From: a virus
Lineage: Duplodnaviria; Heunggongvirae; Uroviricota; Caudoviricetes
DNA length: 34,304 bases
Reading direction: 5' to 3' (one strand)
Virus record (IMG/VR): IMGVR_UViG_2703718827_000010
Location: 1-34,304 of that record
The notes under the pieces were generated by a model, which saw only the letters and a list, made by a program, of their open reading frames with translations, had not been told where the DNA came from and did not search any database. How positions within the stretch are numbered: the first letter of the stretch is position 1; every line of letters begins with the position of its first letter. Made by a program: the position numbers and the translations under genes. Shown in pieces: positions 1,171 to 2,937 of this stretch.

Positions 1171-1235
1171 TTTTTTAGCTGTATGTTAGTGTATTTTTTA
1201 GAACGAAAAATGTTTAGAGTCAATAGAATTTATAT

Positions 1236-1250
1236 CTATTTATTAAATAG
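1236..1250. promoter_or_regulatory. Perfect 7-1-7 palindrome CTATTTA-T-TAAATAG just upstream of the cargo cassette RBS; candidate operator
   Basis: Arms are exact reverse complements; lies 12 nt upstream of the ATG at 1262 in an AT-rich intergenic region. Confidence 0.35.
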
Positions 1251-1261
1251 GAATTGTCATT

Positions 1262-2137
1262 ATGAAAAATAAAAGAATTGTAAAAGATGAAGGTGAAGTA
1301 GTTGATAAATTGGTAGTTAAATATGATGGTGAAGCTCTAAAGAATCATAAAATAGACCTTGATATTTTAACTGAATCTCTCAACGGATTAAATAATCTAC
1401 TTAAAGAAGTAAACTTAATTGTCAATGGTACCAGTGAGAATCTCAATGTAGATGTGGAGCCATTTCGCGAAGGGTCATTTGAATATTTAATTGATGTAAT
1501 ACAAAATCCAACACAATATTTAGATATTTTAAGTATCATAGGTATAGGAGGAACTGGTGTAGTCGCAGCCGGAAGTACTTTAATTGAAATAATCCGTTCT
1601 ATTAGTGGGCGGCAAATTCAAAAAATTGCTTTAACAGCAGATGGCGATTGCAAAATTATTCTTGAAGATGGGCAAGAGATTGTCGCTCCGTCGTACTTTA
1701 GGCCATTACTGTCATCACCTAGTATACGGAAGGCGTTATCTAAAATAATACACAACCCATTACAAAAAGAGGGGTATGAAACATTCAAAATTTCTAACTC
1801 TCAAGGTAAGGACTTTGTGGTAGTTAACGAAAAAGAAGCTGAGCCGTTTAGATATCGCAGAGTTCCTGTGGAACAGTCATATTCTGAACAAAAATTCGAC
1901 GATGTACCAATTACCTTCCTTACTATTCACAAGGACAAAAATACCGGATGGCGCGCGAATTATGAAGACGAAACTGTAACAGTTACAATAGAAGATGAAG
2001 ACTTCTTGCAACGGGTTCGTACAGGCCGAGAATCAAGGATTTTTAGCGATGTTTACTACGTTGACCTGCTTGTTCGGGAAAACTTGAATTCTCTGGACAA
2101 AACCTACATAGTTGATAGAGTGAACGAACTTTTATAA
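1262..2137 (+). CDS. Hypothetical protein, cargo cassette gene 1 (291 aa), mostly soluble with one Gly-rich hydrophobic segment
   Basis: Long ORF with upstream AGGA; AT-rich codon usage unlike flanking phage genes; segment ILSIIGIGGTGVVAAGSTLIEII; no recognisable catalytic motif. Confidence 0.7.
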   Translation: MKNKRIVKDEGEVVDKLVVKYDGEALKNHKIDLDILTESLNGLNNLLKEVNLIVNGTSENLNVDVEPFREGSFEYLIDVIQNPTQYLDILSIIGIGGTGVVAAGSTLIEIIRSISGRQIQKIALTADGDCKIILEDGQEIVAPSYFRPLLSSPSIRKALSKIIHNPLQKEGYETFKISNSQGKDFVVVNEKEAEPFRYRRVPVEQSYSEQKFDDVPITFLTIHKDKNTGWRANYEDETVTVTIEDEDFLQRVRTGRESRIFSDVYYVDLLVRENLNSLDKTYIVDRVNELL

Positions 2138-2160
2138 CCAAGTTAAATTAGGGGGGGATC

Positions 2161-2409
2161 ATGACAGCTTTTGCTTTCTGGCTGGCCTTTTTCAGCGTCC
2201 TCCCCGTGCTATACTGGGCCTTCAAGATTCTCTTTGATCGTATACGCTACATGTGCACTCCACAGCATAGGTTGTTGTTAGAATACGTTGATGATGAGGG
2301 TGTTAGCCATGAACAGTTTGTTGATGTTTCAACTGATGATGAGTTCTATGAAGTAGCTATGGCTGCAATCCGTGACGGAAAAGCAGTCAAAGGAGGTGCA
2401 GGTGACTGA
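2161..2409 (+). CDS. Small membrane protein, cargo cassette gene 2 (82 aa)
   Basis: ATG preceded by G-rich RBS (GGGGGGG); N-terminal hydrophobic helix AFAFWLAFFSVLPVLYWAFKILF then acidic C-terminus; 23 nt after gene 1. Confidence 0.6.
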   Translation: MTAFAFWLAFFSVLPVLYWAFKILFDRIRYMCTPQHRLLLEYVDDEGVSHEQFVDVSTDDEFYEVAMAAIRDGKAVKGGAGD

Positions 2410-2917
2410 AAAATCAACACCTGAAAGTTACGAAAAAGTACCTCTTATTTCGAATGCTGTTGCTAGTGGCTTGACTGGGGCTGTTACTTTAGTTGTAGCA
2501 TCTTGGGATGGTCATTTATCGTTTATAGATTCAGATTTATCCTCGCTTAAGTCATGGATATTACTTGCACTCCCATGCTTGGCAATGTTTTTGTCTCATT
2601 GGATTAAAACGCTTGGGTTCAAATGGTCACTAGGCAGTGTAAATAGACAATTATTAAGTATTAATAAAAGAAAAGAAAAACTCCTTAGAAAAAATATTGA
2701 AAAGTATAAAGACATTATCTCTAAAGAGAAGATTGCCGATTTCTGTAAGCAACTTGAACAGGTGTTACAAGATCGCCACGATATTATAAGCAATACCTAC
2801 ACTCAAAAATTAAAAGAACGTAATGAAACTCTTGAAGAGTACAATTCACACAGAGCAACTCAAGCGAACGACAACCCAGAGTTGCAAAAAATGCTTGAAG
2901 ATCAAACTAATACATAG
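2402..2917 (+). CDS. Membrane protein with two predicted TM helices and charged coiled-coil-like C-terminal half, cargo cassette gene 3; preferred GTG start 2402 (alternative GTG 2372)
   Basis: AGGAGG at 2391-2396 five nt before GTG 2402; overlaps end of gene 2 (translational coupling); hydrophobic segments ISNAVASGLTGAVTLVVASW and WILLALPCLAMFLSHWI; K/E-rich tail. Confidence 0.6.
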   Translation: MTEKSTPESYEKVPLISNAVASGLTGAVTLVVASWDGHLSFIDSDLSSLKSWILLALPCLAMFLSHWIKTLGFKWSLGSVNRQLLSINKRKEKLLRKNIEKYKDIISKEKIADFCKQLEQVLQDRHDIISNTYTQKLKERNETLEEYNSHRATQANDNPELQKMLEDQTNT

Positions 2918-2937
2918 TTGATGTGAACTGTACTAAC

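What the first reader, a model, noticed from the sequence alone, without database searches (positions are those of the whole stretch)
1171..2937. AT-rich three-gene cargo cassette between integrase and AlpA/Xis: candidate membrane-acting defence or exclusion system
Seen in sequence: three co-oriented ORFs (1262-2137, 291 aa; 2161-2409, 82 aa; 2402-2917, about 171 aa) occupy the slot between int and the convergent AlpA-like gene. Their codon usage is markedly AT-rich compared with flanking phage genes (by inspection). They are tightly spaced; gene 3 overlaps gene 2 and has AGGAGG before a GTG start, suggesting translational coupling. The cassette has its own AT-rich upstream region with a perfect palindrome. 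Protein 1 is largely soluble with one Gly-rich hydrophobic segment, protein 2 has one TM helix and an acidic tail, protein 3 has two TM helices and a long charged coiled-coil-like tail. I recognise none as a phage structural, lysis, replication or regulatory protein and see no Walker A, HNH or PD-(D/E)xK motif. Inference: integrase-proximal cargo slots are classical prophage defence islands, and a soluble component plus small membrane proteins is the logic of abortive-infection or superinfection-exclusion modules such as RexA/RexB. This is my best candidate for an undescribed system.
Basis: partly seen in the sequence, partly recalled or inferred. Interest (0 to 1): 0.85.

Follow-up and report, generated by a model that had tools for sequence, protein, structure and literature searches.

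The report
Prophage three-gene anti-phage cassette, gp29-like
The three AT-rich genes next to the integrase are a real mobile prophage cargo operon. Its large protein is a distant relative of gp29 from the tested but mechanistically unexplained MichelleMyBell gp29-gp30 anti-phage system, so this is a likely new three-gene variant of a known defence, not an undescribed system.

Summary
Three co-oriented, tightly packed ORFs (P1 1262-2137, P2 2161-2409, P3 2402-2917) lie between int and a convergent Xis/AlpA-like gene, at GC 0.37 against 0.50 for the rest of the window. All three are under purifying selection.

The P1-P2-P3 order is kept in all 32 loci whose P1 is at least 43% identical. These loci sit in at least five different phage contexts. 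Two are directly behind unrelated CI repressors, which is the lambda rexAB slot. One is a corticovirus-like Vibrio prophage.

P1 is not an orphan:
- It matches PADLOC candidate PDC-S42 and NCBIfam "LAPAL_fam".
- It is a full-length remote homologue of mycobacteriophage MichelleMyBell gp29 (hhalign 98.8%, E 6e-17; hmmsearch E 1e-20).
- gp29 is the reportedly toxic soluble partner of the small membrane protein gp30 in a tested prophage defence.

P2 (1 TM) and P3 (2 TM) have no detectable homology to gp30 or RexB, but they fill the same role as small membrane partners. The P1 model shows ferredoxin-like alpha/beta domains plus a C-terminal OB fold, with no catalytic motif and no close PDB relative.

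Most likely this is a lysogen-expressed, abortive-infection-type module, a Gram-negative three-gene variant of gp29-gp30. The function is inferred, not tested.

The parts
1..1170 (+). Tyrosine integrase (P4/IntS-type arm-binding domain plus catalytic domain). It is the left border of the cargo slot.
   Evidence: Pfam Arm-DNA-bind_3 E 5.5e-18 and Phage_integrase E 1.7e-16. Homologues at about 84% identity lie next to tRNA-Arg in 22 E. coli genomes.
1171..1261 (+). AT-rich spacer (GC 0.21) upstream of P1. It holds the palindrome 1236-1250 and an AGGA ribosome-binding site about 9 nt before the ATG. A promoter is possible but not shown.
   Evidence: Sequence. No sigma-70 or terminator call in the spacer. 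The palindrome is not significant (7.7% of shuffles) and not conserved.
1262..2137 (+). P1, 291 aa. It is gp29-like and belongs to the PDC-S42 / LAPAL_fam family. The model shows N-terminal and central ferredoxin-like alpha/beta domains with a Gly-rich hydrophobic loop (about aa 86-111), then a C-terminal OB fold (aa 207-290) with family-invariant W230, D245 and F248.
2161..2409 (+). P2, 82 aa. One N-terminal TM helix (aa 3-24; conserved W7, F10, P15), then a predicted cytoplasmic acidic domain.
   Evidence: Hydropathy and flanking charges. phrog_15510 E 9.5e-45. Found directly after P1 in all 32 loci. Alignment A5 includes TM-protein partners of distant P1 relatives.
2391..2396 (+). AGGAGG ribosome-binding site inside the 3' end of P2, 5 nt before the P3 GTG start. 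This suggests translational coupling of P2 and P3.
   Evidence: Sequence. A P2/P3 overlap is conserved in Pantoea, Proteus and Vibrio loci.
2402..2917 (+). P3, 171 aa. It has a two-TM hairpin (about aa 13-33 and 46-68) joined by a short conserved acidic loop (W35-D/E-G ... L-K50). A basic juxtamembrane stretch follows, then a poorly conserved charged helical tail predicted to be cytoplasmic.
   Evidence: Hydropathy and charges. phrog_15878 E 7e-98. Alignment A6. An IMG/VR scan with P3 returned only contigs that also carry P1, 17 of 17.
2938..3165 (-). Xis/AlpA-like small HTH protein, convergent with the cassette. It is the right border of the slot.
   Evidence: Pfam HTH_17 E 3e-4 and Phage_Cox E 5e-3, both below the gathering score. 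PHROG excisionase families. A homologous gene borders the slot in E. coli prophages.

Best explanation
The cassette is an autonomous prophage accessory operon (a 'moron'). It most likely gives the lysogen abortive-infection-type protection against other phages. I read it as a Gram-negative, three-gene variant of the MichelleMyBell gp29-gp30 system.

Shown:
- Three real genes under purifying selection.
- Strict P1-P2-P3 synteny across 43-99% identity.
- Lower GC than the flanks in almost every locus sampled.
- Insertion into at least five different phage contexts.
- Full-length homology of P1 to gp29.
- Predicted membrane topology that puts nearly all of P2 and P3 in the membrane or cytoplasm.

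Inferred mechanism:
- P1 is the cytoplasmic sensor or effector. It has no catalytic motif and an OB-fold C-terminus with an invariant Trp, Asp and Phe.
- P2 and P3 form an inner-membrane platform whose cytoplasmic domains dock, restrain or are triggered by P1. The family-wide Gly-rich hydrophobic loop of P1 may take part in this contact.
- The operon is expressed in the lysogen, co-transcribed with the repressor in some phages.
- After a superinfecting phage has injected its DNA, a phage product or nucleic acid engages P1. The complex then stops phage production, probably through a toxic effect at the membrane.
For: - Gene reality and selection: pN is far below pS for all three genes.
- Synteny: 32 of 32 loci keep the order. 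A search with P3 finds only contigs that carry P1.
- Mobility: the cassette lies between int and xis here and in E. coli. It lies directly behind two unrelated CI/S24 repressors, in Proteus with a strong terminator after P3, as in cI-rexA-rexB-tIMM. It lies inside a Pantoea myovirus baseplate module, inside a Mu-like head module, and next to the int of a Vinavirales prophage.
- Composition: GC is lower than the flanks in all 7 loci and in 4 of the 6 loci.
- Defence link: PADLOC PDC-S42 matches all 61 sampled family members. Distant members sit beside RM or DISARM-like genes. A TIR-domain gene neighbours the Salmonella-type cassette. The int-xis slot holds other cargo, including PDC-S31.
- Homology to the tested system.
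- Literature on the prototype: gp29 is toxic, gp30 is a putative membrane protein, and the pair defends against lytic phages (PMC11856565). Adsorption and injection proceed but phage production is thwarted (PMC6426606). The MichelleMyBell prophage lowers Tweety plating by 4-5 orders of magnitude (PMC8549241).
- The window has its own holin, endolysin and DUF2514 genes elsewhere, so the cassette is not the lysis module.
Against: - No phenotype exists for this cassette or for any Gram-negative member.
- Homology to gp29 is remote (24% identity). P2 and P3 show no detectable homology to gp30, so the partnership is an analogy.
- PDC-S42 is an untested candidate, proposed only because members are embedded in other defence systems.
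- NCBIfam names the family a putative phage structural protein, and some cassettes lie inside structural modules.
- No promoter or terminator was detected around the cassette in the window, so expression in the lysogen is unproven here.
Confidence: 0.6

Rival explanations
1. Superinfection exclusion at DNA entry. P2 and P3 would sit in the inner membrane and block genome translocation of incoming phages, as T4 Imm, P22 SieA or HK97 gp15 do. P1 would be a cytoplasmic accessory. No cell death would be involved.
For: The best-conserved part of P3 is the TM hairpin and its short periplasmic loop, not the cytoplasmic tail. The cassette is prophage-borne and sits in lysogeny-linked slots.
Against: The prototype system is reported to let adsorption and DNA injection proceed (PMC6426606). 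Many family members are solitary genes with no membrane partner, so P1, not the membrane proteins, is the conserved core. Almost nothing of P2 or P3 is exposed to the periplasm.
Confidence: 0.15
2. A toxin-antitoxin or addiction-type module, or another lysogen fitness factor, that stabilises the prophage or alters host physiology without a dedicated anti-phage role.
For: gp29 is described as toxic (PMC11856565). The genes are small, overlapping and translationally coupled. One distant homologue abuts an HTH_3 gene, as some TA pairs do.
Against: The only tested relative has a defence phenotype. Neighbours of family members are RM or DISARM-like, TIR-domain and other candidate defence genes.
Confidence: 0.12
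3. A phage structural or morphogenesis accessory set, as the NCBIfam name 'putative phage structural protein' implies.
For: NF053583 match. The cassette lies within the tail/baseplate module in Pantoea and the head module in a Mu-like phage.
Against: The position differs between phages: beside int, behind cI, or within structural modules. The cassette is missing from 20 of 22 E. coli prophages with the same integrase. Members occur in non-phage chromosomal and RM contexts. The same cassette occurs in tailed phages and in a tailless corticovirus-like prophage. Its GC is foreign to every backbone.
Confidence: 0.05
4. A lysis-timing or holin-like membrane module.
For: The small TM proteins P2 and P3 resemble holin or antiholin sizes.
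Against: The window already has a holin (Phage_holin_8), a GH19 endolysin and DUF2514 at 15949-17744. The cassette is convergent with the early operon and distant from the late genes. No holin family was matched.
Confidence: 0.03

Closest known systems
MichelleMyBell gp29-gp30 prophage-mediated defence (DefenseFinder system MMB_gp29_gp30). I attribute the original description to Dedrick et al. 2017, Nat Microbiol, from my own knowledge; that paper could not be read here.
   Same: P1 is a full-length homologue of gp29, and the two are of similar size (291 against 310 aa). In both cases a small membrane protein gene follows directly downstream and overlaps or abuts. Both lie in a prophage cargo region near int and the lysis genes. 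The logic is the same: one soluble, reportedly toxic protein plus a membrane partner.
   Different: This cassette has two membrane proteins (P2 with 1 TM and a cytoplasmic domain; P3 with 2 TM and a long tail) instead of one 67-aa two-TM gp30. Neither shows detectable homology to gp30. Identity to gp29 is only 24%. The hosts are Gram-negative. Nothing here has been tested.
PADLOC phage defence candidate PDC-S42 (Payne et al., bioRxiv 10.1101/2024.01.29.577857)
   Same: P1 and all 61 sampled relatives match model PDLC05015.
   Different: PDC-S42 is defined as a single-gene, untested candidate found embedded in BREX, DISARM or type I RM loci. Here the gene is the first of an obligate three-gene phage-borne operon.
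Lambda RexA-RexB, and the related Sbash gp30/31 and CarolAnn gp43/44 pairs
   Same: Each is a soluble protein of about 280-370 aa plus a small membrane protein, carried on a prophage. In Proteus-type and a second prophage lineage, the cassette lies between the repressor gene and a terminator, as rexAB does. These systems are proposed to act by abortive infection.
   Different: There is no homology to RexA or RexB (hhalign probability 0.1-0.2%). No DUF4747 was detected. RexB has four TM segments. The P1 fold has no close PDB match.
NCBIfam NF053583, 'LAPAL motif-containing putative phage structural protein', and Pfam DUF7946
   Same: P1 scores 195 bits against a cut-off of 60. Its N-terminus matches DUF7946 weakly.
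   Different: The literal LAPAL motif of the wider family reads LTESL in P1. The DUF7946 score of 23.2 is below the gathering score of 27. The 'structural protein' label is not supported by the genomic contexts.

Membership tests
MMB_gp29_gp30 (MichelleMyBell-type defence) | A gp29 homologue is present. | tested here: met
   hhalign of the 61-sequence P1 profile against gp29 gives 98.8%, E 6.2e-17, over 266 columns. hmmsearch gives E 1.4e-20 with Z set to 1e6, and blastp gives E 7e-12.
MMB_gp29_gp30 (MichelleMyBell-type defence) | A gp30 homologue is encoded next to gp29. | tested here: not met
   The P2 and P3 profiles against gp30 give probabilities of 0.7% and 1.7%. Only the analogy holds: small TM proteins lie directly downstream.
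MMB_gp29_gp30 (MichelleMyBell-type defence) | P1 passes DefenseFinder's own HMM thresholds and system rule. | not testable with these tools
   The DefenseFinder models are not available here. The only indirect sign is a GenBank note 'MMB_gp29_gp30__gp29' on the Vibrio homologue.
MMB_gp29_gp30 (MichelleMyBell-type defence) | Lysogenic expression and an anti-phage phenotype. | not testable with these tools
   Only position argues for lysogenic expression: the cassette lies behind the repressor with a terminator after P3 in Proteus-type loci.
PADLOC PDC-S42 | Match to a PDC-S42 HMM. | tested here: met
   PDLC05015 E 2.8e-39 over aa 16-289. 61 of 61 relatives match.
PADLOC PDC-S42 | Stand-alone single-gene system. 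| tested here: not met
   32 of 32 close loci have P2 and P3 attached. Solitary genes occur only among distant relatives.
NCBIfam NF053583 LAPAL_fam | Score above the curated cut-off. | tested here: met
   195.1 bits against a cut-off of 60.
NCBIfam NF053583 LAPAL_fam | Is a phage structural protein, as the name suggests. | tested here: inconclusive
   The contexts argue against it: variable slots, non-phage loci, and both tailed and tailless phages. No virion data exist.
Lambda RexAB | Sequence homology to RexA and RexB. | tested here: not met
   hhalign probabilities are 0.1-0.2%.
Lambda RexAB | Operon position cI - genes - terminator in the immunity region. | tested here: met
   Met in the Proteus-type (L003-5) and L034/35 prophages. 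Not met in the window itself, where the cassette follows int.
Pfam DUF7946 | Score above the gathering threshold. | tested here: not met
   23.2 bits against 27 for the window P1. Some homologues pass, for example P0032 at 29.8 bits.

The most novel reading that the evidence does not exclude
The gp29 / PDC-S42 / LAPAL family has more than 3,000 clusters at 50% identity and no solved structure. It may be a widespread non-enzymatic sensor-effector built on an OB fold. Its membrane partners would be interchangeable: gp30, P2 plus P3, a single TM protein, a lipoprotein, or none. On this reading the enterobacterial three-gene form is a new mechanistic type of membrane-coupled abortive infection, one that has repeatedly taken over the rexAB slot and crosses between tailed and tailless phages.
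Probability: 0.35. Interest if true: 0.7.

Novelty: new variant of a known kind. Interest (0 to 1): 0.5.

Why it matters
The gp29-gp30 system has one experimentally tested example, in a mycobacteriophage, and no known mechanism. This work makes three links.
- One family sits behind four separate database labels: DefenseFinder MMB_gp29_gp30, PADLOC PDC-S42, NCBIfam LAPAL_fam and Pfam DUF7946.
- That family is large and phylogenetically broad.
- An enterobacterial three-gene version exists that could be studied in E. coli or Klebsiella with standard phage panels.

It also offers a second, unrelated occupant of the classical rexAB slot. That would allow a comparative test of how prophages couple a soluble sensor to small membrane proteins.

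Tried and rejected
- RexAB membership: rejected by profile comparison.
- Kiwa KwaB / DUF4868: one UniRef name on a distant homologue suggested this. No family member matches DUF4868, and no Kiwa structure appeared in the fold searches.
- Lysis module: rejected, because the window has its own holin, endolysin and DUF2514 genes.
- Palindrome as operator: rejected. It is not significant and not conserved.
- Promoter and terminator scan of the window cassette: nothing found.
- PDB sequence searches for P1, P2, P3 and the family profiles: nothing found.
- The afdb50 library was unavailable.
- Literature text searches for PDC-S42, DUF7946, 'LAPAL motif' and RefSeq accessions of homologues: no papers.
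- Supplements of candidate screening papers were not held, or did not contain the family.
The GTDB representative-genome scan found only 3 loci.
- A model of the P1-P2-P3 complex was not attempted, because the structure tool returns no inter-chain contacts.
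Full report
**1. Observation**

The three ORFs exist as described: P1 1262-2137 (291 aa), P2 2161-2409 (82 aa) and P3. The ORF lister starts P3 at GTG 2372. Homologues and RefSeq annotation support GTG 2402, giving 171 aa ending at 2917. All three lie on the + strand, between a tyrosine integrase (1-1170; Arm-DNA-bind_3 plus Phage_integrase) and a convergent small HTH protein (2938-3165; weak HTH_17/Cox and PHROG excisionase matches).

The cassette is AT-rich:
- GC is 0.372 against 0.499 for the rest of the window.
- GC3 is 0.28, 0.43 and 0.29 for P1, P2 and P3, against 0.47-0.58 for core phage genes.

P1 and P2 are 23 nt apart. P2 and P3 overlap by 8 nt, with AGGAGG 5 nt before the GTG start.

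The upstream palindrome (1236-1250) is real. It is expected by chance in 7.7% of shuffles of the spacer and is not conserved in homologous loci. No promoter or terminator was called around the cassette.

**2. These are real genes that travel as a unit**

Between the window and homologues, non-synonymous change is far below synonymous change for all three genes. Against E. coli EC31, for example, dN/dS is 0.05, 0.28 and 0.14.

Close P1 relatives are rare. There are 37 clusters at 90% identity, from Klebsiella, E. coli, Citrobacter, Salmonella, Pantoea, Proteus, Photobacterium and Vibrio. Only 2 of 5,426 complete E. coli genomes carry the cassette.

In every one of 32 fetched loci with a P1 at least 43% identical, a P2 homologue follows directly and then a P3 homologue. 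An overlap between P2 and P3 is conserved. An IMG/VR scan seeded with P3 returned 17 contigs, all of which had also been found with P1.

**3. It is mobile cargo**

The same cassette sits in different places in different phages:
- Between int and xis, here and in two E. coli prophages at tRNA-Arg.
- Directly downstream of a CI-like HTH+S24 repressor in Proteus prophages. A strong intrinsic terminator lies 13 nt after P3, followed by an operator-like region. This is the layout of lambda cI-rexA-rexB-tIMM-OL/PL.
- Behind a second CI-like repressor, unrelated in sequence, in another prophage lineage.
- Inside the baseplate module of a Pantoea myovirus.
- As a diverged 291/86/123-aa version inside a Mu-like head module.
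- Between structural genes and int in a 14-kb Vinavirales (PM2/corticovirus-like) Vibrio prophage.

The cassette or P1 homologue had lower GC than its flanks in all 7 loci and in 4 of the 6 further loci.

In 22 E. coli genomes with an integrase about 84% identical, the int-xis slot holds alternative cargo. One genome has a DUF2971 protein that matches PADLOC candidate PDC-S31. Others have unknown 437-aa or 286-aa proteins.

In the Salmonella-type prophage, the cassette lies between an SNF2 helicase gene and a CAP12/Pycsar-type TIR-domain gene.

**4. What P1 is**

Database matches for P1:
- PADLOC PDC-S42 (PDLC05015, E 2.8e-39, full length).
- NCBIfam NF053583, 'LAPAL motif-containing putative phage structural protein' (195 bits against a cut-off of 60).
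- phrog_3243.
- Pfam DUF7946, weakly, at the N-terminus.

An exhaustive profile search found 3,363 cluster representatives at E < 1e-3. The 150 best-scoring ones listed are 275-354 aa and match over nearly the full profile. All 61 sampled members match PDC-S42. PDC systems are untested candidates, chosen because members are embedded in BREX, DISARM or type I RM loci.

My sample of ten distant members' contexts showed:
- Three beside RM or DISARM-like genes.
- Three in phages or prophages, with one or two small TM partners or a lipoprotein-like partner.
- Three solitary.
- One abutted by an XRE-type HTH gene.

The decisive lead came from a GenBank note on the Vibrio homologue, 'MMB_gp29_gp30__gp29'. 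I fetched mycobacteriophage MichelleMyBell (KF986246). Its gp29 is 310 aa and its gp30 is 67 aa. gp30 has two hydrophobic segments and overlaps gp29 by 41 nt. The pair lies between the lysis genes and int.

Tests of homology to gp29:
- hhalign of the P1 family profile against gp29 gives 98.8% probability and E 6.2e-17 over 266 columns. The alignment includes the family's GSF, WR and D..F motifs.
- hmmsearch with the same profile, with Z set to 1e6, gives E 1.4e-20. No other ORF of the MichelleMyBell or lambda loci scored. Besides gp29, only the window's own P1 and phage A2 ORF19 did.
- Pairwise BLASTP gives 24% identity over 273 aa, E 7e-12.

Lactobacillus phage A2 ORF19 is also a member (E 1e-47). 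It is solitary, between the endolysin and int.

According to papers I could read:
- gp29 is toxic, gp30 is a putative membrane protein, and the pair defends against lytic phages by an unknown mechanism (PMC11856565).
- The MichelleMyBell system behaves like abortive infection: adsorption and injection proceed, but phage production is thwarted (PMC6426606).
- The prophage lowers Tweety plating by 4-5 orders of magnitude, and Tweety gp54 counteracts it (PMC8549241).

The primary paper (Dedrick et al. 2017) was not available. I attribute the system to it from my own knowledge.

**5. Structure**

AF2 on the full P1 gave pLDDT 76.5. A second model of residues 1-204, built with 34 diverse sequences, gave pLDDT 88.6 and pTM 0.87.

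A Gly/Ala-rich, moderately hydrophobic segment near residue 88 is present across the family. The median peak hydropathy is 1.59. The model shows it as a loop, not a TM helix.

**6. P2 and P3**

- **P2:** a conserved N-terminal TM helix (W7, F10, P15), then basic residues and an acidic domain of about 45 aa. This predicts an N-out, C-in topology.
- **P3:** a short N-terminus, a two-TM hairpin joined by a 15-residue acidic loop with conserved W-D/E-G and K50, then a strongly basic juxtamembrane stretch and a poorly conserved charged tail. Both termini are predicted to be cytoplasmic.

Almost nothing is exposed to the periplasm. That argues against receptor masking. The two proteins match only PHROG families of unknown function. 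They show no homology to gp30 or RexB and have no PDB relatives.

**7. Mechanism and rivals**

My best reading (about 0.6) is a lysogen-expressed, abortive-infection-type defence. P1 would be the gp29-like cytoplasmic sensor or effector, and P2/P3 its inner-membrane partners.

| Rival | Confidence | Main objection |
|---|---|---|
| Block of DNA entry | 0.15 | The prototype allows injection, and P1 rather than the membrane proteins is the conserved core |
| TA or addiction module, or other fitness factor | 0.12 | The only tested relative has a defence phenotype |
| Structural accessory, as the NCBIfam name suggests | 0.05 | Variable slots, non-phage contexts, and presence in both tailed and tailless phages |
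| Lysis regulator | 0.03 | The phage has its own lysis cassette |

**8. Novelty and value**

This is not an undescribed system. It is a new three-gene, Gram-negative variant of a family with one tested member and no mechanism. The useful results are:
- Four database labels turn out to describe one family.
- Membrane partners are obligate in this subfamily and interchangeable across the wider family.
- The cassette has repeatedly landed in the rexAB slot.

Interest is moderate. It is a good, tractable experimental candidate among many such candidates.

Noticed in passing
window 15045-15794 (+): A second strongly AT-rich ORF (249 aa, GC 0.33, GC3 0.23) lies just upstream of the holin gene (15949-16335). 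It has no Pfam or PADLOC match and looks like another moron in the late-promoter-proximal slot.
   Followed up: partly
window 28652-29335 (+): A low-GC ORF (227 aa, GC 0.40) lies just upstream of the 805-aa tape-measure-sized ORF (29395-31812). It has no Pfam or PADLOC match.
   Followed up: partly
L039 5267-5956; L040 5224-6537; L041/L042 5201-6061 (E. coli prophages at tRNA-Arg): The same int-xis slot holds other cargo in related prophages: a DUF2971 protein matching PADLOC candidate PDC-S31, and unknown 437-aa and 286-aa proteins with no family match. The slot is a variable hotspot.
   Followed up: partly
window 1262-2917 vs L001 7965-9620: The cassette has a mosaic history. Synonymous divergence is near saturation for P1 (pS 0.73) but much lower for P2 (0.25) and P3 (0.33). 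This suggests recombination between P1 and the P2-P3 pair.
   Followed up: no
L003 7578-7780 (Proteus prophage): A strong terminator (AGCCCTC-CCCGC-GAGGGCT followed by a T-run) lies right after P3. An AT-rich stretch follows, with repeated AACACAAAAYGTGATT-like motifs that look like operators ahead of the next operon.
   Followed up: partly
L023 5956-6717 (-) (Salmonella-type prophage, IMG/VR): A CAP12/Pycsar-type TIR-domain protein gene lies about 770 nt from the cassette, and an SNF2 helicase gene lies on the other side. Together they form a small defence-like cluster inside a prophage.
   Followed up: no
L064 (Vibrio phage 10N.286.45.F8_PE001, PQ189332): The cassette is carried by a 14-kb Vinavirales (PM2-like, tailless) prophage as well as by tailed phages. 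The same cargo therefore crosses virus realms.
   Followed up: partly
L065 4031-4933 (Lactobacillus phage A2 ORF19): This classic temperate phage carries a solitary full-length family member between its endolysin and int, with an annotated terminator. It could serve as a Gram-positive test case.
   Followed up: partly
L002 9113-9394 (E. coli O157:H16 Res13-Lact-PEA12-26): P3 is annotated as only 93 aa here, in a prophage remnant riddled with IS66 and IS3 elements. This cassette copy appears to be decaying.
   Followed up: no
window 3205-3687 (-): The first gene of the early-left operon after xis encodes a dATP/dGTP pyrophosphohydrolase-family protein (PF04447, E 2e-41). Related E. coli prophages carry DGQHR-domain and ParB-like genes in the same operon.
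   Followed up: no
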